A stretch of 30,161 nucleotides of DNA from an uncultured bacterium (GTDB taxonomy: Bacteria > Acidobacteriota > Thermoanaerobaculia > Multivoradales > JAHZIX01), in the NCBI GenBank assembly GCA_965368975.1, contig CBDUPA010000037.1, positions 1-30,161 on the forward strand, read 5' to 3'. A program made the translations under genes and the position numbers. How positions within the stretch are numbered: position 1 is the stretch's first letter; each line of letters begins with the position of its first letter. The notes below the pieces were generated by a model that was given only the letters and a program-made list of their open reading frames with translations, was not told the DNA's origin and ran no database searches. Positions 19,667 through 30,161 of this stretch are shown here, in pieces.

Positions 19667-20947
19667 TCAGTGCTCATGGCCGCCGCCCAAGGAGTCCTTG
19701 GAGGCTGCGGATTTCAGCAGGAATGCACCTTCGACCACTACCGACTCACCGAACTCGAGCCCGCTCAGGACCGCTACGGAACCATCCGATCTCTGCCCGA
19801 TCTGGACGTCACGTCGCTCGAAGCGAAGCTCACCGGCGGGAACGAAGACCAGGTACTCCTCGCCATCGCGCACCACAGCGCTTTCGGCCACCACCAGGCT
19901 TGGGCTCTGGGCGAGGCCACCTTCAAGCGGATGAGGATCGAGCAATTCGACCTCGACGAACATGCCAGGACGGAGCTTGCCATCGGGATTGGCCACGTCG
20001 ATCCGTGCGCGCACCGTGCGCGTGTCGCTGTCGACCTGTGCGCTCAGGTACGAAACTGTGCCGGCGAAGACCTCACCGGGGAAGGCATCGACCCGCGCGC
20101 GGGCCTCGTCTTCGAGGTGCACACCGCCGAGATCCCGTTGATAGACGTCGATCCAGATCCACACCCGGCTGAGATCGGCCAGGGTGAAGAGGTTTCGCTC
20201 CGGTGTTACCAGTTCGCCGAGGGTGACATGCCACTCGACCACCGTCCCGGCGAAGGGTGCCCTCAGGGGATAGAGTGCGGCTCTTCGGTCTTCGTAGGTC
20301 AAGCCATCGACCTGCGACTGACTCAGGCCGTAGAGGCGGAGGGTCTCCTCCGCAGTCTGAAGCGAGGCTGTGGCTTCCCGGAGACTCGCTTCCGCTTCGA
20401 TCACCTCTTGCTCGGAGGCGATGCGCTCCGCGAGCAAGCTCTCTGCCCGGTCGAAGCTCTTGCGCGCCAGCTCCTCTCTCGCCTTGGCTTGAAGGAAGGC
20501 CGCCTTCGATTGTCCCAGCTCGACGGAATCGATCTCGGCCAATGCCTGCCCAGCGCCAACCTGCTGGCCAAGCACCGCGTGGACCTGATGCACTCGCCCC
20601 GAGATCCTCGGGCTGACGTGCGCCAGCCGAGTTTGGTCGAAATCGACCTGACCGGTGGTCGACAGCTCTGCTGCGAGAATCCTCTGCTCGACCGGCGCCG
20701 TGCGGATCTCGGCCCTCGAAGCCGCTTCTGGCGTCAGCTCGACGATGCCTTCTTCATCATTATCGTGTTCATCGGCATCGGTGTGCTCTTCGTGGTTGTA
20801 CGCACCGTGCTCTCGATTCTCCAGGGATGCACTGGCCGGCTCGGTATCGCCGTTCTCGGTATCGAGCTCGCTCTTGGAGCAAGCGCCCATGAGCATGGTG
20901 AGGACGAGCGTCAGGGCGATGAGACTACGATGTGCCAGGCGGTTCAT
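19667..20947 (-). CDS. czcB: CzcB-type RND periplasmic adaptor
   Basis: Lipobox MGAC, His/acidic N-terminal segment, LRAPFAGTV, ADLSRVWI, TRTVRAR, LRPGMFV, C-terminal GGHEH; ATG 20947 (ATGA overlap, SD GGAGG). Confidence 0.92.
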   Translation of the reverse strand: MNRLAHRSLIALTLVLTMLMGACSKSELDTENGDTEPASASLENREHGAYNHEEHTDADEHDNDEEGIVELTPEAASRAEIRTAPVEQRILAAELSTTGQVDFDQTRLAHVSPRISGRVHQVHAVLGQQVGAGQALAEIDSVELGQSKAAFLQAKAREELARKSFDRAESLLAERIASEQEVIEAEASLREATASLQTAEETLRLYGLSQSQVDGLTYEDRRAALYPLRAPFAGTVVEWHVTLGELVTPERNLFTLADLSRVWIWIDVYQRDLGGVHLEDEARARVDAFPGEVFAGTVSYLSAQVDSDTRTVRARIDVANPDGKLRPGMFVEVELLDPHPLEGGLAQSPSLVVAESAVVRDGEEYLVFVPAGELRFERRDVQIGQRSDGSVAVLSGLEFGESVVVEGAFLLKSAASKDSLGGGHEH

Positions 20948-22242
20948 GACGGTTCCTCCCCGAGAGATTGTCGAGGCGATGAGAGACGGCCGACCGCCAA
21001 GTCGAGCGCGATTCGTGCCAGCCAAGCGTCGGCCAGCGCTTCGATGTATTCGCGGCGGCTGGCGACGAACTCGCGACGAAGCGTTACGACGTCCGTCGCG
21101 CCGATACGGCCAGCCTCGAACGAGCGCTGCAGCAGCTCGACGTTCTCGTCCAGAGTTTCGAGCACCTGGTCCCGTAGATGCTCGGCCGCTGCGCGGGCCG
21201 CGAGCAGGTTGTTGAACGCAGTGACCACTTCTTGCTCGATGGCCAGGTGTAACGCATCCTGCTCGTGACGCAACCGCTCGCGCAATGCACGGCTTTCCGC
21301 AATACGGCCTTGGTTGCGGTTGAACAGAGGCACCGAGATACTGATTGCGGCGCCAACGATATTGTCCGATGCCTCCTCTCGCTGAAAGAAGCTTCCAACG
21401 ACGAGATTCGGCTTGCCCTCGGCAATCGCGAGGCGAATTGCCGCCTCGGCGGCTTGCTCCCGCTGACCGGCAGCGCGGAGGTCGCCGCGACGCTCGGAAG
21501 CCAAGGCCAGCAAGTCTTCGAGCGCGAGAGGCTCCGCTTCGGGGACATGCAGATCTCCTACCAGCTTGGGTGGGGTCTGCGGGTTCGCCCCCGCGATCTC
21601 AGCCAGCCGGCTCCGCGCGGACGCGTAGTCTGCCCGAGCCTTACGGAGGGATCTCTCTGCCCGCCCTGCACTCGCCTGGGCCAGATTGACCTCGATTTGG
21701 GTCGCCGCACCACGTTCCAAGCGCCGCTGCGAGAACGCCAGAATCTCCTGGGCTAGTTCGGCATCGGTCGTTGCCACACCCAACAGTTCTCGCGCCATTA
21801 CGGCCTCTGCAAAGGCAGATTCAACCTTGTAGGCCAACAGCCGTCGGTGATGAACCAGGACTGCTTCCGCGGCAGCTAGCTCCTGATCAGCGACCGCAAT
21901 ACGCTTACGTCGCTGGCTAGCTAGCTCGAACTCTTGCGAGATGCTCAAGCCGCGGTCGATCGCCGACTCGCGAGGACTACTCCGGTCGGCAAGCTCCAGC
22001 GAGATCTCAGGATTATGGGGGTAGGTCTTGGCATCGACCAAGCGGCTGGTGACCTCCTGTCGCTCTGCTTGTCTGCCGCGTAACACCGGACTGTTCTCGA
22101 AGGCAGTATCCAGCGCCTCAGACAGCGTCCATTCGGGGACGACCTGCGCCATCACCGTGACAGAAAGCAGCAGGCTGCCCGCCAGAATTCCGCCTTGCAG
22201 AAGTTGACACCGGCTTAGCCGGCGATTCTCGTTTCGAAACAT
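20944..22242 (-). CDS. czcC: CzcC/TolC-family outer-membrane protein
   Basis: Signal peptide, YPHNPE, SVPLFNRNQG, FEAGRIG; start ATG 22242 or GTG 22245. Confidence 0.9.
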   Translation of the reverse strand: MFRNENRRLSRCQLLQGGILAGSLLLSVTVMAQVVPEWTLSEALDTAFENSPVLRGRQAERQEVTSRLVDAKTYPHNPEISLELADRSSPRESAIDRGLSISQEFELASQRRKRIAVADQELAAAEAVLVHHRRLLAYKVESAFAEAVMARELLGVATTDAELAQEILAFSQRRLERGAATQIEVNLAQASAGRAERSLRKARADYASARSRLAEIAGANPQTPPKLVGDLHVPEAEPLALEDLLALASERRGDLRAAGQREQAAEAAIRLAIAEGKPNLVVGSFFQREEASDNIVGAAISISVPLFNRNQGRIAESRALRERLRHEQDALHLAIEQEVVTAFNNLLAARAAAEHLRDQVLETLDENVELLQRSFEAGRIGATDVVTLRREFVASRREYIEALADAWLARIALDLAVGRLSSPRQSLGEEPS

Positions 22243-22449
22243 CACAATTCCTCGCTCTGGTCATGACAGCGTGTTCGAGCCGATCTGTGGATGGCTCGGG
22301 TTTAAATCCTTGGGCTTGCAGAGCTGAGTCGCTAGCAAGCGATGAGCGAGCCGGTATCGGCCCGCCACGACCGCAGAAGATTGAGCCGGCGGAGGCGGAA
22401 CAACCGGTGCGCGAAGACGCACTGGTCCTAGCTACCGCGAGGCTCGCTG

Positions 22450-22782
22450 TCAGACTCGAGGAGGATGATCGATCGAAGACCAGAAGCCCGTTGGTGGAGG
22501 GATGGGCTTGGGCGCTTCCACAGTGTAGGAAGCGCGAAGAGTTTCGGTAGGCGTGATCTGTGGACTGAGAAAGGATAGGCTTGCGTGGCAGCCACAGAGA
22601 TGGAAGATCTGTGTACAGCCATGCTCAGGGCCGACGGGCTCGTGGTGGTCACCATCGGGAGCCGAATGCGCAAGGTGTCCTTGGGTCACGAGATGTACGG
22701 CGCTCTCAGCGATTTCTGCAGCCCCCGGCACTAGGGCTAGAGCCAGAATCGCGGCATAGATCTTGGAGCAACGTACTCTCAC
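22450..22782 (-). CDS. Small His/Cys-rich protein leading the czcCBA operon
   Basis: Signal-like N-terminus; HLVTQGHLAH...DHHE...EHGCTQIFHLCGCH; ends IDHPPRV. Confidence 0.7.
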   Translation of the reverse strand: MRVRCSKIYAAILALALVPGAAEIAESAVHLVTQGHLAHSAPDGDHHEPVGPEHGCTQIFHLCGCHASLSFLSPQITPTETLRASYTVEAPKPIPPPTGFWSSIDHPPRV

Positions 22783-22789
22783 GACGACT

Positions 22790-22795
22790 ATTCTA
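22790..22795 (-). promoter_or_regulatory. -10 element of the czc operon
   Basis: TAGAAT on the minus strand, 7 nt before GTG 22782; -35 is weak. Confidence 0.45.
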
Positions 22796-23127
22796 CACAG
22801 TCCTTGGCCATATGTTCAGGGTTCAGGGTTGCCGAGACTGCAGTCGTCAGTCACTTCTAGCTTGTAGGCGGGTTCCAGTTCGCTGTGCCGGGCTTCGGCG
22901 AAATGTCTCCGATCCAGGGCGATAAATGCCTCTTCCCCGGCACGATCTTCATCGTCACCACGAGTTCGTATCGGCATTCCATTTCGCGGATTCCGGGATC
23001 AGATAACCAGCCCACCGTGGCACACCCCACCGTGCAAGAGAGGTTCGACAGAGCCAGCCCTCCGGTCGAGAGCAAGAGGGCTTCAGCTGGGAGTTTTGGT
23101 CGCTTGGCGATGGGTGGGCAGCCATGT

Positions 23128-23753
23128 ACCGGGGTGGCACCCTGCCGGCTATGTCGAGGTACCGGGGTGTACCAGGGTGGAGAGCTGTCAAAATTCCTCG
23201 TCGCGATCGGCCCAATGCTTCGATTCCGGCTCTCGTTTAGCGTGGCACCCAAAAACTGGCCATCTTGCCTCGATTCCCGTGAGCGTAAGGCTCCTCAAAA
23301 TTAAAAGCTCATTTCATTCGAATAAACATTATAGCAATAACCCCCTGTCGGGCCTTCACTTACACATACTGGGATCGACGAAGAGGTCTGCTGATGGCTC
23401 CGCGAGTAAGATCGACAAGGAGAAGCTGCAATCGAGGCAGAAGGCCAAGAAATGCCTCGAAATAGCCCCCTGCTTCGGTTCTGAGAGCCTGCAGAGCCGA
23501 GGGGTGGATTCGGGTACCCCAGTTCGTACCAGAATTCATTAGTTACAGTAACGTGGTAGACCGGGGTGGTACCCCCCGTAGTTTGGCCAAGGTCGAGGTA
23601 ACCGAGGGGTGGCACCAGGTACACTGGTCGCGGCGACGGTCCCAACCTGATGGTGCCGGTCACATGCGTGCTTTTTGGGGCTTGGGAGAGGCTGGAGAGC
23701 ACCTGGAGACAGAGAAACAGCGGGTGTGCACGGGTGGGGTACCCGGCCACCCC
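23128..23753. repeat. Dispersed ACC(GA)GGGGTGG(C/T)ACC-like repeats flanking an AT-rich core
   Basis: Copies at 23128, 23161, 23497, 23560, 23601, 23732 and an inverted core at 23746; AT-rich stretch 23297-23340. Confidence 0.6.
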
Positions 23754-23779
23754 TGAAGCAATGGAGAGAGGCTGCCAGA

Positions 23780-24688
23780 TCAGGCAGCCAGGGAGGGGAT
23801 GTCGAGGCTTTTCAAAGCCTGGCGCTTGGCTGCCTCGCCTCTGCGATCGTAGCGAAGAGTCGTGTTGGCGTTGGCATGGCCGGCGAGTTGCTGGACGGTG
23901 AAGACATCGACACCAGCATCGAGCATGTGGGTAACGGTCGATCGTCTCAAGTCGTGAGCCGAGAAGTGGTCTACGCCGGCTTGCTGCTGACGTTTGCGCA
24001 GGATGTAGGCGATGCAACTGCCGCGCAGGCGAGTGTGGCGGATCTCACCAGTCTGGCGGATCGGGCAGAAGAGCGGACCGGGCTCGTCACCGCGGACGTT
24101 GAGCCAGGCGGCCAGGTACTGGCAGCCGGCATCGCTCAAGTAGACCGTGCGCTCTTTGTTGCCCTTGCCGTGTACGAGGATCGCCCCCTCCTCCAGGTCG
24201 ACGTCAGCGACGTTGAGCCGGGCGACCTCTCCTCGGCGCAAGCCGCAGCCGTAGAGCACGGTGAGCATGGCGGCATCGCGCGCGCCCTTGGGACTTTCGT
24301 CGCTGGTGCAGGAGCTGAACAGCTTCACGATCTCGGGCATCTCCAGGGCTCGGCCGGCGGGCAGTTTGGAGGCGCGCACGTTCGGCACCGCAGCAGCGCG
24401 TTGGTACGTGTCGGCGTCGATCAGGCCCAGCGCCCACGATTGCTTGAGCACACCGCGCAGCGTCGACAGAATCTTATTGACAGTCGCAGGTTGGTAGCGC
24501 GCGATCAGAGCTTGCCGCACCGTCATTCCGTCTGCGTACGTCAGCCGCCACCAGGGGTAGGTGTCGATGGTGTGGCTGGGATCGAGGATATCGACGATCT
24601 TGTCGAGGCAGCGGCGCATGCCTTGGCTGCCCTTGGATAGGCTCGCCATGTACAGGCGGGCCGGGTTGGCGATGATCGAGGTCTTCAT
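23780..24688 (-). CDS. Tyrosine recombinase/integrase
   Basis: Full catalytic set GLRRGE, HGKGNKER, HDLRRS, LAGH, TTLRY; PATVN core-binding helix; 302 aa, no obvious arm-binding domain. Confidence 0.95.
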   Translation of the reverse strand: MKTSIIANPARLYMASLSKGSQGMRRCLDKIVDILDPSHTIDTYPWWRLTYADGMTVRQALIARYQPATVNKILSTLRGVLKQSWALGLIDADTYQRAAAVPNVRASKLPAGRALEMPEIVKLFSSCTSDESPKGARDAAMLTVLYGCGLRRGEVARLNVADVDLEEGAILVHGKGNKERTVYLSDAGCQYLAAWLNVRGDEPGPLFCPIRQTGEIRHTRLRGSCIAYILRKRQQQAGVDHFSAHDLRRSTVTHMLDAGVDVFTVQQLAGHANANTTLRYDRRGEAAKRQALKSLDIPSLAA

Positions 24689-24941
24689 ACGTTGCCCTTT
24701 CTCCTGGTGAATGACTATGAAGCTGGAAAGGCGTGGTGGCGATCGCGTAAGTCTCGCTCTCCTCGTCTTTACGTCGTCGTGTCGTACCGTCTATGGATAC
24801 CAATACGTGGTTCCACGATCGGTTGTCAACGGGACAGCGACCGATTCTTTGGGACTTTGCTTCGGGGGGATGTTCGGGCTTGGTTCGCAGCTACGGAGAG
24901 AGGAGAGCGAGCAGAGACAGGAGGCAGGCAGGCAGAAGAAG

Positions 24942-24976
24942 GGCACCGGTGCCCAGTGACCTGGGAGACCGGTGCC
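24942..24976 (-). terminator. GC-rich hairpin just after the terminase-like operon (possible terminator)
   Basis: ggcaccggt-g-cccag-tgac-ctggg-ag-accggtgcc, about 20 nt after the stop at 24996; only a weak CTTCTTCT tail. Confidence 0.4.
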
Positions 24977-24995
24977 TTGGGGCGTCAGAAGTCGA

Positions 24996-25691
24996 CTAAT
25001 CCCAGTACGAGAGACGACGGGCGTAGAGGTCCCGCAGGCGCACAGGTTCTCGGCGTGGTGGCCATTGCTTGCGAGGCTTCTCGGGTGGCATCGGGATCTC
25101 CATGCACGCATCCTGAATGACAGCCAGGCCGAGGCAGGTCACCAGCTGGTCCTGCGTACCGACCTGGAACGCGCCGTAGATATCGTTGGCGTTGTCGATC
25201 GTGTCGAGCTGGTAGTCCAGTAGCTCTTGGACCAGGCGCTCACTTTGGGGGTGACGCCCGAGATGGAGCCGGTTGGTTTGCAGCAGCATCTGTAAGCGCG
25301 TGACCAGGTATGCTTTGCCCACTCGCAACTCTCGGTCGCCCTCGACGAGCTGGTCTCCGTGATTGAAGGTGACTTGCCAGTAGTACGGCTGGGTCGCGTA
25401 CTCCTTGAGTAGCTCGAAGACAGGATTGCCCAAGCCGGTCGTATCGACGTGGGTGTTCTGGCGCCAGTTCGAATTGCGCTCGACGAGTCCATCCGAGATC
25501 TCGCGCAAGCGTTTGCCGATGGCCGGATACGTGCTCTTGGCTTCGAACTGTTGCAGGTGACGGACCGTGAAGTGCTGGTCCCAGTATCCGCTGTTGTCGT
25601 CGCGTCGACGCATCTCGACCTCGACGACGGCCAAAGCGGGGGGCTTGCGGTTCTGGCCCAGGCTCAGGCCGAGAAAGACTCCGGTTGACAT
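24996..25691 (-). CDS. Terminase-nuclease-like (RNase H fold) protein, catalytically degenerate paralogue B
   Basis: FLGLSLG...PALAVVE...VDTTGLG...QVTF...GKAYLV...ELLDY...YGAF...QDQLVTCLGLAV; SD AGGAGG, ATG 25691. Confidence 0.8.
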   Translation of the reverse strand: MSTGVFLGLSLGQNRKPPALAVVEVEMRRRDDNSGYWDQHFTVRHLQQFEAKSTYPAIGKRLREISDGLVERNSNWRQNTHVDTTGLGNPVFELLKEYATQPYYWQVTFNHGDQLVEGDRELRVGKAYLVTRLQMLLQTNRLHLGRHPQSERLVQELLDYQLDTIDNANDIYGAFQVGTQDQLVTCLGLAVIQDACMEIPMPPEKPRKQWPPRREPVRLRDLYARRLSYWD

Positions 25692-25705
25692 TGGATACCT
25701 CCTAC

Positions 25706-26479
25706 TCAGAACCAGTATTCGATGTCTTCGCGTTGGGCTCGGCTCACTTCGGCCTGGCCGAAGGCTTGGTCTTCGCTCTCCACGAACTGGCAGCCATACT
25801 CCTGGTCGTACAACCAGTCGCCGTGGACACGCCGCTCCTCGGCGAGAAAGTCCGGACTGATGCGCGAGCAAGACTCTGCCGGAACCTCGTAGCGCTCCCA
25901 GGCTTCCTCGGAGTGCCAGGCTCCGTGCCACCACCCTCGGCTGCCGTACGGCGTCGAGAGGGCAAACAGGCGACCTCCTGAAACTGCCAGCATCGGCCGT
26001 ACCGAGAAGTAGAGGTCCGAGGCCACCCGTGCGGCCTCGTCGATGATCAGCAGCTCGACACCCGAGAAGCCGCGAATCGTGCCTTCCTTGCCGGGCAGCG
26101 AGACGATGCGACTCTTGTTGACGAGTTCGAGCCGCAGGGCGGACTCGGTCTCGACCGGGACCAGGTCGCCGGTCGCGTGGTAGCAGGCCAGCGCCTTCTT
26201 GAACAGCTCCTGCGACTGGCGTAGCGAGGGCGAGAGCAGCAGCACGAGCGAACCGGGCTCGAACAGAGCCGTATGGACCGCCAACGTGGCCGCAGTGGTG
26301 CTCTTGCCGGTCTGACGCGAACAGTTGAGCAGAACGCGTGACGAGGACGAGCGCAGCAATTGGGCCTGCCAGGGATCCGGATCGAGCCCAGCCCGCCGCG
26401 AGAACTCGACCGGATCCAGCGCAAGCTCCAGGCTTTGCTGCAGCGTCAACTCTACCTGCTGTTTCTTCTTGGCCTTCAT
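25706..26479 (-). CDS. Terminase large subunit, ATPase domain only
   Basis: DPWQ adenine motif, Walker A SRQTGKST, SPSLRQS, IRG, Walker B LLIIDEAA, motif III LSTP, QEYGCQF; stops at 257 aa without a nuclease domain. Confidence 0.9.
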   Translation of the reverse strand: MKAKKKQQVELTLQQSLELALDPVEFSRRAGLDPDPWQAQLLRSSSSRVLLNCSRQTGKSTTAATLAVHTALFEPGSLVLLLSPSLRQSQELFKKALACYHATGDLVPVETESALRLELVNKSRIVSLPGKEGTIRGFSGVELLIIDEAARVASDLYFSVRPMLAVSGGRLFALSTPYGSRGWWHGAWHSEEAWERYEVPAESCSRISPDFLAEERRVHGDWLYDQEYGCQFVESEDQAFGQAEVSRAQREDIEYWF

Positions 26480-27048
26480 GCCCCCGCCCCCCTGAGAGCC
26501 TCTACGACCGCCTGGCGAGCCTCAGGGAAGGGCTTGAGTGCTCGCAGGATGGTTGCACGCAACTGGGTCCACTCGGGCAGGCTCGTTACGGAGAATCCCT
26601 CCGGCAACTCCTCGAGCTTTCCGTGCACGCGTACATCGAGTTCAATCTGGCGCGCCACGCGGTCGACGGCACGCAGGACAACCGCATATTGCTTCTTCTC
26701 GCGTGCTTCCCGCAGCACTTCCAGGCTTGCCGAGTTGATGGCCTTGATCTGTTGCACTGTCTCGATCGCGTACTGCTGTCGCGCGGTCAGTGGATGTGAT
26801 CCTGCCTGCTGCTGCGCCGCCATCGAGTCGGCACTGGCTTGCGGTGGTGCCGTCCCATCAGACACTGCGGGTAAGAGCTTGAGCCCTTCCGCGATCAGCT
26901 CGGGTATGTGGTAGCGCCGGTGCCGCCAAACAGCCGACGGTGACACCGCGAAGTGACGCGCTACCGTGCGGTAACCATCACTCCCGAGCAACGCCATATC
27001 GATCTGGCGCACGCGGGGGTGTTCACAGATAGTGCACTTTCTAGCCAT
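26476..27048 (-). CDS. Zn-site/HTH protein, putative terminase small subunit
   Basis: CTICEHP...YRTVARHFAVSPSAVWRHRRYH, helical C-terminus; ATGA-coupled to the ATPase gene; SD AGGAG. Confidence 0.65.
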   Translation of the reverse strand: MARKCTICEHPRVRQIDMALLGSDGYRTVARHFAVSPSAVWRHRRYHIPELIAEGLKLLPAVSDGTAPPQASADSMAAQQQAGSHPLTARQQYAIETVQQIKAINSASLEVLREAREKKQYAVVLRAVDRVARQIELDVRVHGKLEELPEGFSVTSLPEWTQLRATILRALKPFPEARQAVVEALRGAGA

Positions 27049-27134
27049 GGAGAATCTCCTGAGTTGGGAAGTGAGTCGAAGGAATGTAAGTCACGCATTT
27101 CGATTCTCGATCCGTCTCGCCTGGCGCTGGACAA

Positions 27135-27887
27135 TTACAAGTGGCCCCTGGTGCGCCAGTAGTAGTGCTCCCGCGCGCGCGCTCGGCGTTGACGCCGTTG
27201 CAACCACGTCTCGGGCGGTGGCGGTGGCTCCGGGGCTTCGCAACGTTGGGTCGTGTTGACGGCCAGGCCGAGGCTGGTCACCAGCTGATCGCGGGTTCCG
27301 ACCTGGAAGGCGCCATAGGTGTCGTTGCCGTTGTCGCTCGTTTCGAGCTGATAGTCGAGTAGTTCCTTGACAAGCCGATCGCTCTGGGGATGGCGTCCGA
27401 GGTGGAGTCGGTCGGTTTGCAGCAGAGTCTGCAGACGCGTGACCAGGTACGCCTTGCCGAGCCGGATCTCGTCATCAACCTCGAGACGCTGGTCACCATG
27501 GTTGAAAGTGACTTGCAGCAGGCCCAACTTGGGTACTTTCTCGCGCAGAAGCGTGAAGACAGGCTCACCCAGTCCGGTCGTGTCGACGAAGGTTTGCAGG
27601 GACCAGCGGGGATCGCGCTCGACCAACCTCTCGGAGATCTCGCGCAGGTACTCGGCGATGGCCGGGTACGTGGTCTTGGCCTCGAACTGCTTGAGGTGAC
27701 GGACGGTGAAGTGTTGGCACCACTCCGACGCATCGGTCTCGCGTCGACGCCAATCGGCCTCGACGATCGCCAGTGCAGGAGGGTTGCGATGCTGCCCGAG
27801 GGTCACTCCCAGGGCTACATTGCTGTACAGCGGCTTGTCCTCTGCGACGGGGTGCTGTGACCTGGGGAAGTCGTCGTCAGGCCACAT
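27135..27887 (-). CDS. Terminase-nuclease-like protein, catalytically degenerate paralogue A
   Basis: ALGVTLG...PALAIVE...VDTTGLG...RDQLVTSLGLAV; SD AGGAGG, ATG 27887; aligns without gaps to 24996-25691. Confidence 0.8.
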   Translation of the reverse strand: MWPDDDFPRSQHPVAEDKPLYSNVALGVTLGQHRNPPALAIVEADWRRRETDASEWCQHFTVRHLKQFEAKTTYPAIAEYLREISERLVERDPRWSLQTFVDTTGLGEPVFTLLREKVPKLGLLQVTFNHGDQRLEVDDEIRLGKAYLVTRLQTLLQTDRLHLGRHPQSDRLVKELLDYQLETSDNGNDTYGAFQVGTRDQLVTSLGLAVNTTQRCEAPEPPPPPETWLQRRQRRARAREHYYWRTRGHL

Positions 27888-28524
27888 CGTCGAGCCTCCT
27901 GCGTCGCGGCTGGATGTGCTGGACGGCCAGCCCCAAGGCCGTGGCCAGGTCGTCGTGACGGTCCTGGCCGAAGGCGCCGAAGCGCTCCCGGCCGTCCTCG
28001 TCGATGCGGATCTCGTAGTGCAACAGCTCCTCGACCAAGACGTCGGTCTCACTGCCCCTGGGCAGGTGGAGCCGTCCGCTTTGCAGCACGACTTGGAGGC
28101 TGCAGACGAGCCGGGTCTTTCCCAAGCTCAGCGTGCGCTCTCGGCGGCGGACGGTGCGCTGCATGCCGGACACGAAGGTGACCGCCCACAGTTCGGCGGC
28201 GAGAGGCTGAGCTTCGAGCAAATCCAGGACACCCTGCCCGACACCGGTCGCGTCGAGGTACAGGATCGGCTCGGCGCCCGTGCGCGCGGTGACGTTGCGA
28301 CACAGCGTACGCAAGCGCTGAGCCACGTCGGGGTAGGCAGTGCCCAGCGGCAGGCGTTCCAGGAAGCGCACGACGAAGTGGAAGCCATCGCTGCGCTCTT
28401 GCAGTTCAGCAACGACGATCGCGGTCGGGTCGTGTTTCTTGCCCACATCGACGCCGACCACGACTGGATGCTGGCTCGGCCGTTCTGCGGGAGATGGTTG
28501 AGGGTGAGGTGAGTATGGAGTCAT
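27877..28524 (-). CDS. Stand-alone terminase-type RNase H-fold nuclease with intact acidic motifs
   Basis: VVGVDVGKKHDPTAIVV, YLDATGVG, EELLHY, HDDLATALGLA; SD AAGGA, ATG 28524. Confidence 0.82.
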   Translation of the reverse strand: MTPYSPHPQPSPAERPSQHPVVVGVDVGKKHDPTAIVVAELQERSDGFHFVVRFLERLPLGTAYPDVAQRLRTLCRNVTARTGAEPILYLDATGVGQGVLDLLEAQPLAAELWAVTFVSGMQRTVRRRERTLSLGKTRLVCSLQVVLQSGRLHLPRGSETDVLVEELLHYEIRIDEDGRERFGAFGQDRHDDLATALGLAVQHIQPRRRRLDDVA

Positions 28525-28528
28525 GGAT

Positions 28529-29167
28529 TCATCCTTCTGAGAGTGCATCGTCCTCGATGCGTTTGGGATAGGGCTGCGCCTTGGCCACGAGCTGTCGGCG
28601 CAGAGCCTTGGTGAAGGCAAAGACGTAGCGGTGCTTGGCGGGCATGTAGATGCGCTTGGCGGTCGGGTCAACGTGTCGGCGCACCCAGTCGAGCTTCTGG
28701 CTGCCCGGCCCGTAGCGGTCGTACAGGGAGCGCAGGTGCTCGATCTTGCCCAGCACCTTGAAGCAGGGCTGGACCGAAGTGCCGAGGTAGATCCAGTTGG
28801 TGGCCTGGTAGATGATGCCGAGATGCCCCTGGCGCGTGTCGGCGTAGGAGACGATCACCTCCAAGCCCGGCGACTGCCGGCGCAGCATCTTCAAGCTCTG
28901 CGCCACGCACTTCGAGGTGGGGTGCTCGCGCCCTGGTGCCAGGGCGACGCGCACCAGTTCGCAGGCACCGGTGGGTTCGAGGCCGAAGGGACTCGATAGG
29001 TTGCGATTAGCGCCGCTGCCGTAGAGGATCGCGCCGACGAAGCGGCCTTCCTCCCAGACACCGATGCGCACCAGCTTGCCGGCGGGCATCTTGCGGCTGT
29101 AGTGCCAGCGCAGTACGGCGTGGGTCGCCGCCTTGTGAGAGCAGTAGTCGAGGTGGAGCGAGGTCAT
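28529..29167 (-). CDS. Mom-like (phage Mu Mom family, GNAT fold) DNA-modification protein
   Basis: WHYS, GVWE..FVGAILYG.GAN, CELVRVAL, IVSYADTRQGHLGIIYQATNWIYLG, KHRY; SD GAGGTG, ATG 29167. Confidence 0.8.
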   Translation of the reverse strand: MTSLHLDYCSHKAATHAVLRWHYSRKMPAGKLVRIGVWEEGRFVGAILYGSGANRNLSSPFGLEPTGACELVRVALAPGREHPTSKCVAQSLKMLRRQSPGLEVIVSYADTRQGHLGIIYQATNWIYLGTSVQPCFKVLGKIEHLRSLYDRYGPGSQKLDWVRRHVDPTAKRIYMPAKHRYVFAFTKALRRQLVAKAQPYPKRIEDDALSEG

Positions 29168-29177
29168 CTCGCTCACC

Positions 29178-29771
29178 TCACGGCCGGAACTCGTGGCCGC
29201 AGTGCGGACAGGTCGCGAGCTTCTTCTGATCCAGGCGGTTTTGCTCGTCTTCGCCCACCGGCTCGAACGCAGGACCAGCCAGCAGCATGTCAACATCGTC
29301 GCGGTCGAAGCTGGCCAGCAGGTCGCCGGCATCGGGCACGTCCGCGAGCACCTGTTGCAACCCGGACTCGTCCCAGATTTGCAGCACATCGGTAAAGCCC
29401 AGGTCGCCGCCGAGAAGCGTGAGGTTGTTGTGATCGATGGCGAAGGCTACCGCCGCCGCATGGCTCTCGGCATCGACGCCGAAGATGATCGGCACCGCCC
29501 AGGAGCCATCCTCTAGGGCCAGGATGCCGCGCGGGGGTGTGCCACCCGCCTGGCGCATCCGCTCCAAGGCCTCGGTGCGGCCGTTGCCGTAGACCAGGGC
29601 ACCGAGGGTGGCGTCGAACTTCGGCGGGTCACCGAAACCATGGGTTTGTATCGAGACTTCGAGGCGATCCAGGTCGTGACGCTTGGGGTTGGCGTCCCAG
29701 CGCCGAGCTTGGCTCAAGGGGACGTAGCGGAGTTCGAGTTGGTCCGGTGGAGTCTTCTGAGGAGTGGACAT
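29178..29771 (-). CDS. ParB/Srx-like N-terminal-domain protein with C-terminal CxxC knuckle
   Basis: VPLSQ...NPKRHD...SIQTHGF.DP...LVYGNGRTEAL...AFAIDHNNL; ends RLDQKKLATCPHCGHEF; SD AAGGA, ATG 29771. Confidence 0.72.
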   Translation of the reverse strand: MSTPQKTPPDQLELRYVPLSQARRWDANPKRHDLDRLEVSIQTHGFGDPPKFDATLGALVYGNGRTEALERMRQAGGTPPRGILALEDGSWAVPIIFGVDAESHAAAVAFAIDHNNLTLLGGDLGFTDVLQIWDESGLQQVLADVPDAGDLLASFDRDDVDMLLAGPAFEPVGEDEQNRLDQKKLATCPHCGHEFRP

Positions 29772-30161
29772 CGGTGCGTTTCCTTGGAAAGAGGGGTGAG
29801 TAGATGGAGAGGAAGGAAGAATGAAGTCGAGACGATCGCGGGTGAGATGGTTGCGGCTCACCTTCGTCGTACGGTGCGAGAGCTGAGAACCGAATCCATG
29901 TGCATTCTTTTCGTTGCTCTATCGTCGATAGTTGGGCGTTTCCTGCAAGCGCTCCTTATTAGGAACAGTACCTCGTGCGAAATGCACGTCGCAAGGATAT
30001 TTTCTGAGTCCTAGGCAGATCTACAGTGCTGTCGAAGGAGTACGCTCTGCTGATGAAATCCCATGAAATACCTATCGCGAGTGCAACGATTCAGATGCTC
30101 CTTGGGACCAATAGGGCGCTCACAGAGTCGGTGGAAGTCTTTGCAGCTACGCAAGATCGGA

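What the first reader, a model, noticed from the sequence alone, without database searches (positions are those of the whole stretch)
24996..29771. Split-terminase operon: solo ATPase, three solo nuclease-fold genes, TerS-like, Mom and ParB, with no virion genes
Seen: seven co-oriented, closely packed genes (gaps 86 nt or less, two overlaps). The order is ParB-like, Mom-like, nuclease, nuclease*, TerS-like, TerL ATPase, nuclease*, then a hairpin and a tyrosine recombinase. Established: tailed-phage TerL is normally one ATPase+nuclease polypeptide followed by portal and head genes. Here the ATPase ends at the domain boundary, the only catalytically intact nuclease lies upstream of it, and the usual portal slot holds a degenerate nuclease and then the recombinase. 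All frames are intact. Inference: a repurposed packaging module, for example a satellite that hijacks or poisons a helper phage motor, a defence system with Mom-marked self DNA, or a DNA-transfer module.
Basis: partly seen in the sequence, partly recalled or inferred. Interest (0 to 1): 0.88.

Follow-up and report, generated by a model that had tools for sequence, protein, structure and literature searches.

The report
Satellite-like element carrying its own split terminase
This stretch is the DNA-packaging end of a small integrating mobile element, probably a parasite of phages, that carries its own three-part packaging enzyme but no capsid genes and has relatives in many bacterial and some archaeal genome bins.

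Summary
Seven co-oriented, tightly packed minus-strand genes lie at 24996-29771: ParB-like, Mom, an intact TerL-type nuclease (NucA), two catalytically dead paralogues (NucB, NucC), a TerS-like protein and a 257-aa TerL ATPase that ends at the domain boundary. A terminator hairpin and a tyrosine recombinase follow.

The split TerL is not itself a sign of repurposing. Six IMG/VR phage contigs have the same ATPase gene plus nuclease gene, followed by portal, and four of them by a major capsid gene.

What is unusual is the context. In 31 loci from other genomes the TerS-like/ATPase/nuclease set sits behind integrases, AlpA and primase-helicase genes, and no recurrent portal or capsid gene was seen. 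One relative is bounded by a 45-bp tRNA repeat (11.5 kb). Another is an 11.7-kb contig with a terminal repeat.

This genome holds three diverged copies under purifying selection (dN/dS 0.07-0.44). ParB-Mom is a common phage pair.

Best reading: a PICI-like phage satellite that brings its own complete terminase. No helper phage, excision or packaging is shown. It is a new variant of a known kind.

The parts
29178..29771 (-). ParB-like (ParB/Srx-type N-terminal domain with a C-terminal CxxC zinc-ribbon-like tail), 197 aa
   Evidence: phrog_620 'ParB-like partition protein', E 1e-15. No Pfam family at E<=0.1 except short zinc-ribbon hits. 69-81% identical to proteins in L006-L012. The sister copies on C52 and C59 carry a +1 A insertion that shifts the frame.
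28529..29167 (-). Mom-like DNA-modification protein, 212 aa
   Evidence: Pfam Mom, E 1.2e-49, 169 bits against a cut-off of 27.1. phrog_1384, E 5.8e-52. dN/dS 0.07-0.10 between the genome's copies. Homologues in 272 phage records.
27877..28524 (-). NucA: stand-alone TerL-type RNase H-like nuclease with an intact catalytic triad
   Evidence: Pfam Terminase_6C, E 2.1e-7, above the cut-off. The family profile hits the G20c TerL nuclease 5m1f at E 1.9e-11. Motifs GVDVG, LDATG and RHDD correspond to G20c D294, D347 and H427-D428-D429. dN/dS 0.16.
27135..27887 (-). NucB: catalytically degenerate paralogue of NucA with a basic/aromatic C-terminal extension
   Evidence: 34% identical to NucA in the alignment. 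Motifs GVTLG (D294->T), VDTTG and TRDQ (D429->Q). The model has mean pLDDT 84.3 and an RNase H-like fold; best PDB match is RuvC 4ep5, E 3.2e-4. dN/dS 0.34-0.44. Predicted to dock on the ATPase C-terminal tail: ipSAE 0.73, best control 0.01.
26476..27048 (-). TerS-like protein: N-terminal CxxC plus helix-turn-helix, then long helices
   Evidence: No terminase family in Pfam or PHROGs. Weak HTH hits across 22 homologues, and 1 of 22 hits Sf6_terminase at E 0.005. tblastn hits directly upstream of the ATPase in 20 of 31 genome loci, and in phage contigs L038, L039 and L042. The model (pLDDT 81.5) has no PDB fold match better than E 0.9.
25706..26479 (-). TerL ATPase domain as a separate 257-aa protein
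   Evidence: Terminase_6N above the cut-off. phrog_7579, E 1.2e-59. P74-26 TerL ATPase 4zni, E 4.4e-8. G58-K59 and D147-E148 are invariant in 34 sequences; their reading as Walker A and Walker B is recalled. It ends where the fused TerLs pass into the nuclease domain. dN/dS 0.08-0.11.
24996..25691 (-). NucC: second degenerate nuclease paralogue, a duplicate of NucB found only in this copy
   Evidence: 62-68% identical to NucB. Motifs GLSLG (D294->S), VDTTG and TQDQ. Absent from C52 and C57. dN/dS against NucB 0.28.
24941..24954 (-). Terminator-like hairpin GGGCACCGGTGCCC followed by a T-rich tail
   Evidence: scan_promoters_terminators. It lies about 40 nt after the NucC stop codon.
23780..24688 (-). 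Xer-like tyrosine recombinase (302 aa), one of about 11 copies in the genome
   Evidence: Phage_integrase, E 7.3e-34. XerC and XerD models match below their cut-offs. Copies about 90% identical on C28, C15, C49, C54, C51, C50, C57, C41, C46 and C52. dN/dS 0.10-0.11.
22873..23020 (.). Conserved non-coding piece of about 150 nt found downstream of the recombinase at all 9 copies whose downstream DNA is held. Similarity between copies stops sharply at about 22873, which is the likely right edge of the mobile DNA
   Evidence: Alignment of 9 copies. Substitutions are spread evenly over codon positions, 27/27/28. At most 1 compensatory pair. No Rfam match. Beyond it lie unique DNA and an outer-membrane efflux gene at 20944-22245.
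29868..30159 (.). Left-arm remnant, 71% identical to the DNA that lies upstream of AlpA in the sister copy on C52
   Evidence: blastn. No AlpA, Prim-Pol or 477-aa gene lies between it and ParB in this copy.

Best explanation
The stretch is the packaging end of a small integrative, satellite-like mobile element of the PICI kind.

Its TerS-like, ATPase and nuclease genes come from a lineage of tailed phages in which the large terminase is naturally encoded as two genes. The ParB-like/Mom pair is a common phage DNA-modification cassette. This element lineage has in addition multiplied the nuclease gene.

Shown here: gene identities; the split at the domain boundary; one intact and two dead nucleases; purifying selection on all of them; recurrence of the same set behind integrase, AlpA and primase-helicase genes, with no recurrent virion gene seen, in many other genomes.

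Inferred mechanism: after a helper phage is induced or infects, the element excises and is replicated. In this copy replication must be supplied in trans, because only the sister copy on C52 has AlpA, Prim-Pol and the 477-aa protein. Mom modifies the DNA. The TerS-like protein recognises the element's own packaging site. The ATPase joins NucA through its C-terminal tail to rebuild a working TerL, which cuts the DNA and pumps it into helper-made procapsids.

The dead paralogues NucB and NucC are predicted to bind the same ATPase tail. They may act as non-cutting alternative subunits: regulators of cutting, adaptors to a helper portal, or competitors of the helper's terminase. Their role is the least certain step.
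For: 1. Identities.

2. Split at the domain boundary.

3. The solo ATPase is a very large family. 7996 of 8000 scored candidates had E<=0.001, and the 120 listed are 233-281 aa long and 63-100% identical.

4. In the 31 loci from other genomes, tblastn with the window's proteins found a nuclease next to the ATPase in 27 of 31. Two of the four misses have under 100 nt of downstream DNA. It found a TerS-like gene upstream in 20 of 31, ParB in 7 of 31 and Mom in 8 of 31.

5. ATPase frame length was measured in 25 of these loci. It was 240-276 aa in 24 and fused (455 aa) in 1.

6. Upstream census: 136 ORFs from 27 loci (29 were screened; 2 had no qualifying ORF). Phage_integrase 8, Mom 6, DUF3631 4, AAA_25 4, Prim-Pol 2, DUF3987 2, PriCT_1 2, D5_N 1, DnaB 1. 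No virion family among the 25 families shown of 46.

7. Downstream census: 144 ORFs from 29 loci. 26 match the nuclease family. No portal or capsid family among the 25 shown of 75.

8. L021 is bounded by a 45-bp direct repeat of the 3' end of a tRNA-Pro gene, giving 11.5 kb.

9. L044 is an 11,694-bp IMG/VR contig with a 123-nt terminal repeat. It encodes an integrase, a D5-type primase-helicase, RusA, DUF5681, the ATPase and a nuclease, and the 10 further ORFs scanned matched no capsid or portal family.

10. Real phages with the same split carry portal and capsid genes. They form a separate branch from the ParB-Mom elements in the ATPase tree (SH-aLRT 92 for each branch).

11. This genome holds three diverged copies with dN/dS 0.07-0.44.

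12. The sister copy has AlpA, E 1.5e-7, and Prim-Pol, E 4.9e-40.

13. ATPase with NucB: ipSAE 0.73, best control 0.01. That mark was reached by 58 of 80 solved complexes and 2 of 110 mismatched pairs. Runs agree in at least 91% of contacts; partner pLDDT is at least 74. The interface is ATPase residues 237-257. These are halves of a split gene with solved fused relatives, so the pass may reflect likeness to those structures.

14. Possible resident helpers exist: full-length TerL frames on C7 and C32, and portal plus HK97 capsid on C7 and C28.
Against: No helper phage is identified, and no excision, circular form or packaging of this element is shown.

The contig ends 300 nt upstream of ParB, so the left part of this copy is unseen. 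What is seen lacks AlpA and a replication module.

No att repeat was found for this copy. A clean flanking repeat was found in only 1 of 11 related loci tested.

The sister copies show damage: the same +1 frameshift in ParB on C52 and C59, and NucA broken at a multi-copy repeat in the C59/C57 copy.

The two censuses print only the 25 commonest families, so single virion genes could be hidden. L032 has a tape-measure gene 3.7 kb downstream of the ATPase.

The portal and capsid proteins of the split-TerL phages have no homologue in this genome, so any helper is of another lineage.

The TerS assignment rests on position and a helix-turn-helix; there is no family or fold match.
Confidence: 0.55

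Rival explanations
1. It is a decaying remnant of a prophage of the split-TerL lineage that has lost its virion genes. The genes are on their way to becoming pseudogenes and do nothing.
For: Phages with the same split exist. The sister copies carry a ParB frameshift and an interrupted NucA. This copy lacks a replication module. Two of its three nucleases are catalytically dead.
Against: dN/dS is 0.07-0.44 for every gene compared between copies that differ by dS 0.2-1.8. The same virion-less layout recurs in distant phyla. One relative is bounded by att repeats and another is a contig with a terminal repeat. The ParB-Mom elements form one branch of the ATPase tree, apart from the phages.
Confidence: 0.1
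2. It is an anti-phage interference or defence module. Terminase parts, above all the dead nucleases, poison the packaging motor of incoming phages, or an ATPase-nuclease pair restricts DNA that lacks the Mom mark. The element itself is not packaged.
For: Known satellites block their helpers at packaging (read in passages of PMC10085698, and PMC9618062). The dead paralogues are kept under selection. NucB is predicted to bind the conserved ATPase tail. Mom could mark self DNA.
Against: PADLOC has no hit for any of the seven module genes except a weak MTase-like match in ParB, E 0.0018. Mom is missing from 23 of 31 related loci. The set always travels with integrase and replication genes. An intact nuclease and a TerS-like protein are retained, as expected for real packaging. 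Interference and satellite life are not exclusive.
Confidence: 0.13
3. It is part of a complete phage. The virion genes lie on other contigs because the assembly broke at repeats.
For: The contig ends 300 nt from ParB. The module is repeated in the genome and the assembly is fragmented there. The genome holds portal and capsid genes elsewhere.
Against: In phages with this split the portal follows the nuclease. Here the nuclease is followed by a recombinase and then an efflux gene. The sister copy C52 shows AlpA, Prim-Pol and a 477-aa protein upstream of ParB, not virion genes. Relatives on contigs of 156-938 kb and on a 4.2-Mb contig have no recurrent virion family on either side.
Confidence: 0.05
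4. It is a self-transmissible or plasmid-like element that uses the terminase set for its own DNA processing, for example resolving replication concatemers or loading DNA into vesicles or gene-transfer-agent-like particles, without a helper phage.
For: A complete cutting-and-pumping enzyme is present without any capsid. ParB-like proteins also serve plasmids. One relative is a contig with a terminal repeat, consistent with a circle.
Against: No known system uses TerL without a portal-bearing capsid (recalled, not tested). No conjugation or partition ATPase gene was seen among the families listed in the censuses.
Confidence: 0.07

Closest known systems
PICIs (phage-inducible chromosomal islands)
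   Same: Core set of integrase, AlpA-type regulator, primase-replicase and a TerS homologue at the distal end. About 10 kb in size. No structural or lysis genes. (Definition read in passages of PMC10085698. Matched here.)
   Different: PICIs borrow the helper's TerL. These elements bring a TerL ATPase and one to five TerL-type nucleases. No capsid-morphogenesis gene was found. Hosts here are Acidobacteriota, Myxococcota, Actinomycetota, Chloroflexota, Bacillota and archaeal bins, by record titles. Helper dependence is untested.
Capsid-forming PICIs (cfPICIs)
   Same: Satellites that encode their own terL and terS (PMC10085698).
   Different: cfPICIs also encode capsid, portal, protease and head-tail connectors. 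No Phage_portal or HK97 capsid match lies on this contig, and none recurs beside relatives. TerL here is split.
Tailed phages with a two-gene TerL (IMG/VR contigs L038-L042, L049; PHROGs 7579 and 27743)
   Same: ATPase of 238-258 aa followed by a separate nuclease gene. A TerS-like tblastn hit lies upstream in 3 of the 6 (L038, L039, L042). ATPase 53-58% identical to the window's.
   Different: They go on with portal (phrog_64, E 4.5e-16 for L041) and, in four of the six contigs, head-morphogenesis and major capsid genes. They have one intact nuclease, and no ParB or Mom hit in the part fetched.
Putative satellite scaffold ML_43_3791 of group G8, cryoconite viromes (Bellas et al. 2015, PMC4490671)
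   Same: [quoted passage not shown]
   Different: Only the gene list was seen. No sequence was compared, so homology is unknown. A split terminase, Mom and nuclease paralogues are not mentioned. A tail gene is listed there.
Marine VEIMEs (Eppley et al. 2022, PMC9618062)
   Same: Virion-encapsidated integrative elements with integrase, AlpA, primase/helicase, TerS homologues and 'motor-like ATPases' (passages read).
   Different: The paper assumes the helper's large terminase is used. No TerL nuclease genes are described in the passages read. Its supplements, which hold the gene lists, could not be seen.
TerL of Thermus phages G20c and P74-26 (PDB 5m1f, 5tge, 4zni)
   Same: Best solved relatives of both halves. 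NucA keeps G20c D294, D347 and D429.
   Different: Those are single polypeptides. NucB and NucC lack D294 and D429, residues that the G20c paper calls indispensable for catalysis (PMC5389553).

Membership tests
TerL ATPase domain (Terminase_6N) | Sequence match above the curated cut-off, with Walker A and Walker B motifs | tested here: met
   26.6 bits against a cut-off of 22. G58-K59 and D147-E148 are invariant in 34 sequences. 4zni, E 4.4e-8. The Walker labels are recalled.
TerL (whole large terminase) | ATPase and nuclease domains on one polypeptide | tested here: not met
   The frame stops at 257 aa, at the position that matches residue 237 of a fused 417-aa TerL. The same holds in 24 of 25 genome loci measured.
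TerL nuclease (Terminase_6C, RNase H-like) | Three metal-binding carboxylates equivalent to G20c D294, D347 and D429 | tested here: met
   NucA only: GVDVG, LDATG, RHDD. Terminase_6C 31.5 bits against 22.6.
TerL nuclease (Terminase_6C, RNase H-like) | The same carboxylates in NucB and NucC | tested here: not met
   NucB has T, D, Q and NucC has S, D, Q at the three positions. The fold is retained: model pLDDT 84.3, RuvC 4ep5 E 3.2e-4.
TerS (small terminase) | Match to a TerS family or fold; N-terminal DNA-binding HTH; gene directly upstream of TerL; ring oligomer | tested here: inconclusive
   Position and HTH are met. There is no family match above a cut-off, and no PDB fold match better than E 0.9. 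Oligomer state cannot be tested here.
Mom | Full-length match to Pfam Mom above the cut-off | tested here: met
   169.2 bits against 27.1, profile positions 2-202 of 202.
ParB/Srx-type protein | Match to a ParB N-terminal domain family | tested here: inconclusive
   phrog_620, E 1e-15, but no Pfam or NCBIfam ParB model.
PICI | Integrase | tested here: met
   Xer-like recombinase at 23780-24688. P4-type integrases, with an Arm DNA-binding domain, in relatives.
PICI | AlpA/Stl/MerR-type regulator and a primase-replicase | tested here: not met
   Not present in the sequenced part of this copy. Present in the sister copy C52 and in relatives. The left end of this copy is unseen.
PICI | Induction, excision and packaging by a helper phage | not testable with these tools
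   No sequencing run was listed. No helper is identified.
cfPICI | Own capsid, portal, protease and head-tail connector genes | tested here: not met
   No PF04860 or PF05065 match on C37. None among the families listed beside relatives.
Known anti-phage defence systems (PADLOC 2.0) | Match of the module's proteins to a defence-system model | tested here: not met
   0 families for 7 of the 8 proteins scanned (the seven module genes and the recombinase). ParB has a weak MTase_II match, E 0.0018.
Integron integrase | Score above the curated cut-off of the integron-integrase models | tested here: not met
   TIGR02249 76.9 bits against 265; NF011946 47.6 bits against 435.

The most novel reading that the evidence does not exclude
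This is a widespread, so far unnamed class of phage satellites, present in at least ten bacterial phyla and in methanogen genome bins, that carries a complete but modular terminase. One conserved ATPase has a C-terminal tail that plugs into interchangeable nuclease-fold subunits. The intact subunit cuts. The multiplied dead subunits, up to five nuclease copies per element, serve as adaptors that dock the motor on the portals of different helper phages, or as poison subunits that disable the helper's own terminase. That would make packaging specificity a swappable cassette.
Probability: 0.2. Interest if true: 0.85.

Novelty: new variant of a known kind. Interest (0 to 1): 0.62.

Why it matters
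Known satellites either borrow the helper's large terminase (PICIs, P4, PLEs) or bring a whole head-building kit (cfPICIs). An element that brings only the motor would be a third strategy. It would need only empty procapsids and tails from a helper.

The family looks very large. 7996 of 8000 scored candidates for the solo ATPase passed E 0.001. By the record titles its hosts are environmental lineages, such as Acidobacteriota, Myxococcota, Chloroflexota and methanogen bins. The satellite surveys read here report hosts mostly among gram-positive genera, a few gram-negative species and marine bacteria (abstract of PMC9618062).

The naturally split TerL, with a tail-docking interface and dead paralogues, is also a ready-made system for asking how the ATPase and nuclease of a packaging motor talk to each other.

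For genome annotation, many 'terminase family protein' calls of about 250 aa are probably markers of such elements and not of prophages.

Tried and rejected
- Assembly error as the cause of the split: rejected. The same stop at the domain boundary is seen in 24 of 25 measured loci from independent assemblies.
- Fold search for the TerS-like model: no PDB match better than E 0.9. The name rests on position and the HTH only.
- Sequence search of the PDB with NucA alone: no hit at E<=1. A 30-row profile was needed.
- tblastn of NucA against phage records: no match.
- Word-index search for TerS-like relatives: only 5 hits, so it was not informative on spread.
- tRNA and tmRNA in the window: none. 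None in the sister contigs.
- Rfam: nothing at gathering score in the window. Nothing at E<=1 in 22200-25100. One chance-level hit in L002/L003.
- The conserved 150-nt piece as a small gene: rejected, substitutions 27/27/28 over codon positions.
- The same piece as a structured RNA: no support, 0-1 compensatory pairs.
- Contig-end overlaps to join C37, C52, C57 and C59: none found.
- att repeats: none of 12 nt or more that made sense in 10 of 11 loci.
- Integron reading of the recombinase: scores are far below the cut-offs.
- Public sequencing runs: none was listed, and no RNA holder was listed.
- Supplements of PMC9618062, PMC10085698 and PMC4490671 could not be seen. They may list elements like this one.
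- Print searches for a description of such elements. They found the partial precedents named under Closest known systems and no description of a split-terminase satellite. This covers only the held library.

Full report
WHAT IS THERE. The window is the whole of contig C37 of a 7.1-Mb, 59-contig genome. Between 24996 and 29771 lie seven co-oriented minus-strand genes. With starts chosen from homologue alignments they are: ParB-like 29178-29771, Mom 28529-29167, NucA 27877-28524, NucB 27135-27887, TerS-like 26476-27048, TerL ATPase 25706-26479 and NucC 24996-25691. The spacings are 10 nt, 4 nt, an 11-nt overlap, 86 nt, an ATGA overlap and 14 nt. A terminator-like hairpin lies at 24954-24941, and a 302-aa tyrosine recombinase at 23780-24688.

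Mom is a full-length Pfam match (169 bits against 27.1). The ATPase passes Terminase_6N and hits phrog_7579 at E 1.2e-59. NucA passes Terminase_6C. All three nucleases hit phrog_27743. ParB-like hits phrog_620. The TerS-like protein hits no terminase family.

THE SPLIT AND THE NUCLEASES. The ATPase aligns to residues 4-237 of the fused 417-aa TerL of Thermus phage Riverbug, and NucA aligns from residue 239. In that phage and in Meiothermus phage MMP17 the gene is whole and is followed by portal and head genes.

A 30-sequence profile of the nuclease family finds the G20c TerL nuclease (5m1f, E 1.9e-11) and P74-26 (5tge). [quoted passage not shown] The chain numbering of the alignment places these in the motifs GxDxG, xDxTG and HDD.

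NucA has all three. NucB has T, D, Q and NucC has S, D, Q at those positions, so both should be unable to cut. The NucB model (pLDDT 84.3) still has an RNase H-like fold. Its best PDB matches are RuvC chains (E 3.2e-4), with low TM-scores. NucB and NucC also carry a basic, aromatic C-terminal extension that is absent from the other 28 rows of the alignment.

THE SPLIT IS A PHAGE TRAIT. Of 13 IMG/VR loci with a related ATPase, six (L038-L042, L049) have an ATPase of 238-258 aa followed by a separate nuclease gene and then a portal. The L041 portal matches phrog_64 at E 4.5e-16. Four of the six (L038, L041, L042, L049) also carry a major capsid gene in the part fetched. Three loci (L043, L045, L046) have a fused TerL and another portal type. 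A two-gene TerL is therefore the normal state of one phage lineage, and PHROGs already holds families for both halves.

THE CONTEXT IS WHAT STANDS OUT. The solo ATPase family is very large. 7996 of 8000 scored candidates had E<=0.001, and the 120 listed are 233-281 aa long.

A scan of one genome per species returned 31 loci. By their record titles they come from Acidobacteriota, Myxococcota, Actinomycetota, Armatimonadota, Planctomycetota, Chloroflexota, Bacillota, Gemmatimonadota, Thermodesulfobacteriota and two methanogen bins.

tblastn with the window's proteins found the following:
- A nuclease beside the ATPase in 27 of 31 loci. Two of the four misses have almost no downstream DNA.
- A TerS-like gene upstream in 20 of 31.
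- ParB in 7 of 31 and Mom in 8 of 31.
- One to five nuclease copies per element in the seven ParB-Mom loci (five in L010).

By eye the close relatives run: P4-type integrase, AlpA, an 800-aa primase-helicase (or Prim-Pol plus a second protein), ParB, Mom, TerS-like, nuclease, ATPase, nuclease(s), and then unrelated genes.

Two censuses put numbers on this.
- Of 136 ORFs upstream of the ATPase, from 27 loci, 8 match Phage_integrase and 6 match Mom. Many match replication families: DUF3631 4, AAA_25 4, Prim-Pol 2, DUF3987 2, PriCT_1 2, D5_N 1, DnaB 1. No virion family is among the 25 families shown of 46.
- Of 144 ORFs within 7 kb downstream, from 29 loci, 26 match the nuclease family. No portal or capsid family is among the 25 shown of 75.

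These lists are truncated, so single virion genes could be hidden. A direct scan of nine suspicious ORFs found a tape-measure protein in L032, and Ig-like decoration or tail matches in the distant L036.

The portal and capsid proteins of the split-TerL phages have no tblastn match in the 31 loci or in the window's genome.

Two relatives have defined ends.
- L021 (Acetivibrionales bin) is bracketed by a 45-bp repeat of the 3' end of a tRNA-Pro gene, giving 11.5 kb that includes an IS110-type gene.
- L044 is an 11,694-bp contig with a 123-nt terminal repeat. It holds an integrase, a D5-type primase-helicase, RusA, DUF5681, the ATPase and a nuclease.

Flanking repeats were not found in the other 10 loci tested.

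In the ATPase tree the ParB-Mom elements (with two Actinomycetota loci nested among them) and the portal-bearing phages each sit on one side of a branch. SH-aLRT is 92 for both; this was a quick search without bootstrap.

THIS GENOME. The module occurs three times: on C37, on C52 and on C59 plus C57.
- C52 has AlpA (E 1.5e-7), Prim-Pol with PriCT_1 (E 4.9e-40) and a 477-aa protein of no Pfam family upstream of ParB.
- C59 keeps only AlpA.
- C37 has none of these before the contig ends.
- NucC exists only on C37, and C57 has a second TerS-like gene.

Between copies, dN/dS is 0.08-0.11 for the ATPase, 0.07-0.10 for Mom, 0.16 for NucA, 0.18-0.27 for TerS-like, 0.34-0.44 for NucB and 0.28 for NucC against NucB. 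The genes are therefore maintained, and the dead nucleases evolve fastest.

Against this, ParB on C52 and C59 shares a +1 A insertion. NucA of the third copy is broken at its GVDVG motif, where both contigs run into a repeat that is also found at other contig ends.

The genome holds possible helpers. There are full-length TerL frames on C7 and on the self-overlapping 48-kb contig C32, and portal plus HK97 capsid on C7 and C28. Nothing links them to the element.

PARB AND MOM. Mom homologues occur in 272 phage records. In the two best Arthrobacter phage matches the gene is annotated next to a ParB-like nuclease-domain gene near the genome end. ParB-like relatives are annotated as the first or one of the last genes of several Microbacterium phage records. 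The pair is thus an ordinary phage cassette. Mu Mom is known to modify adenine and shield DNA from restriction (recalled).

HOW THE PIECES MAY FIT. A complex prediction of the ATPase with NucB scored ipSAE 0.73 against a best control of 0.01. That mark was reached by 58 of 80 solved complexes and 2 of 110 mismatched pairs. Runs agree in at least 91% of contacts, and the partner pLDDT is at least 74.

The interface is the last 21 residues of the ATPase lying on the NucB sheet and helices. These are halves of a split gene with solved fused relatives, so the pass may only reflect that likeness. It supports binding but does not show it. Only NucB could be tested.

If the tail is the common plug, NucA, NucB and NucC would compete for it. 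That idea is inference.

VERDICT. The finding is real and more than chance. The best reading is a PICI-like satellite that carries its own three-part terminase. That it is a discrete mobile element and not a prophage fragment I put near 0.75. That it is packaged into helper capsids by its own terminase I put near 0.5.

Rivals are a decaying prophage remnant, an interference module, a phage broken up by the assembly, and a helper-free DNA-processing role.

Partial precedents in print:
- A virome scaffold listed with ParB, terminase, Prim-Pol and a P4 integrase (PMC4490671).
- 'Motor-like ATPases' in marine VEIMEs (PMC9618062).
- The PICI and cfPICI definitions (PMC10085698).

Six full-text searches found no description of a split-terminase satellite. 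Supplements were not available.

Noticed in passing
window 22873-24688, and copies on C28, C15, C49, C54, C51, C50, C57, C41, C46, C52: The 302-aa Xer-like recombinase occurs about 11 times in the genome at about 90% amino-acid identity, with dN/dS about 0.1. At all 9 copies whose downstream DNA is held, a conserved, non-coding piece of about 150 nt lies 400-1200 nt past the stop codon, and similarity between copies ends abruptly after it. On C28, C15, C49 and C50 the recombinase follows a 329-aa protein, a P4-type integrase and a small unknown protein instead of a terminase module (Pfam checked on C28: the 329-aa protein is RadC-like). On C28 low-GC cargo, including an Hsp90-like ATPase, follows the piece. 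It looks like a mobile or cassette-capturing unit of its own.
   Followed up: partly
L050 (= contig C52) 454-520 and 7852-7918; upstream of most recombinase copies: A repeat R of about 180 nt (a terminator-like hairpin followed by conserved short palindromes) lies 150-350 nt upstream of most copies of the recombinase. It also lies in the left arms of C52 and C59, so on C52 two direct copies, 7398 nt apart, bracket the whole AlpA-to-ATPase block. It may be a recombination site. The window's copy lacks it: NucC and the hairpin sit in its place. There is no Rfam match.
   Followed up: partly
contigs C52 (about 3713) and C59 (about 1457), equivalent to window about 29590: ParB in the two sister copies has the same single-A insertion (CCGAAAG against CCGAAG) that shifts the frame, yet the downstream part stays 95-97% identical in protein to the window's copy. 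It is either a recent pseudogene or a tolerated shift.
   Followed up: partly
L006 8759-8834 and L007 8635-8710: ARAGORN calls a tRNA-Gly-like gene in the short gap between Mom and the TerS-like gene of two related elements. The window has none. It could be a real tRNA or a tRNA-like site.
   Followed up: no
contigs C32, C7 (274-280 kb) and C28 (22-25 kb) of the same genome: C32 (48,262 nt, 57.5% GC) overlaps itself by 55 nt, so it may be circular, and it encodes a full-length TerL frame. C7 has TerL, portal and an HK97 capsid side by side. C28 has a portal and a capsid. These are candidate resident phages or helpers.
   Followed up: no
ends of contigs C59 (2633-2702) and C57 (4537-4606): NucA of the third copy is interrupted at its first catalytic motif. 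Both contig ends run into sequence that also sits at the ends of C50, C7, C13, C25 and C18, as an insertion sequence would.
   Followed up: partly
L010 6805-12613; L007 and L009: Related elements carry up to five nuclease-fold genes. One class recurs with Glu in motif I and Asn in motif II (L006:10732, L009:11983, L010:11951). This is a different kind of degeneration from that in NucB and NucC.
   Followed up: partly
L035 789-2213: One locus that groups with the solo-ATPase loci in the tree, on a long and uncertain branch, has ATPase and nuclease in a single 474-aa frame. This could be a re-fusion or a retained ancestral state.
   Followed up: no
contig C1 356.5-358.7 kb: A second Prim-Pol plus 477-aa gene pair, 67-70% identical to the pair on C52, lies on the largest contig with no terminase module detected beside it.
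   Followed up: no
window 22246-22872: About 600 nt with no convincing ORF, and unique in the genome, lie between the edge of the conserved piece and the outer-membrane efflux gene.
   Followed up: no
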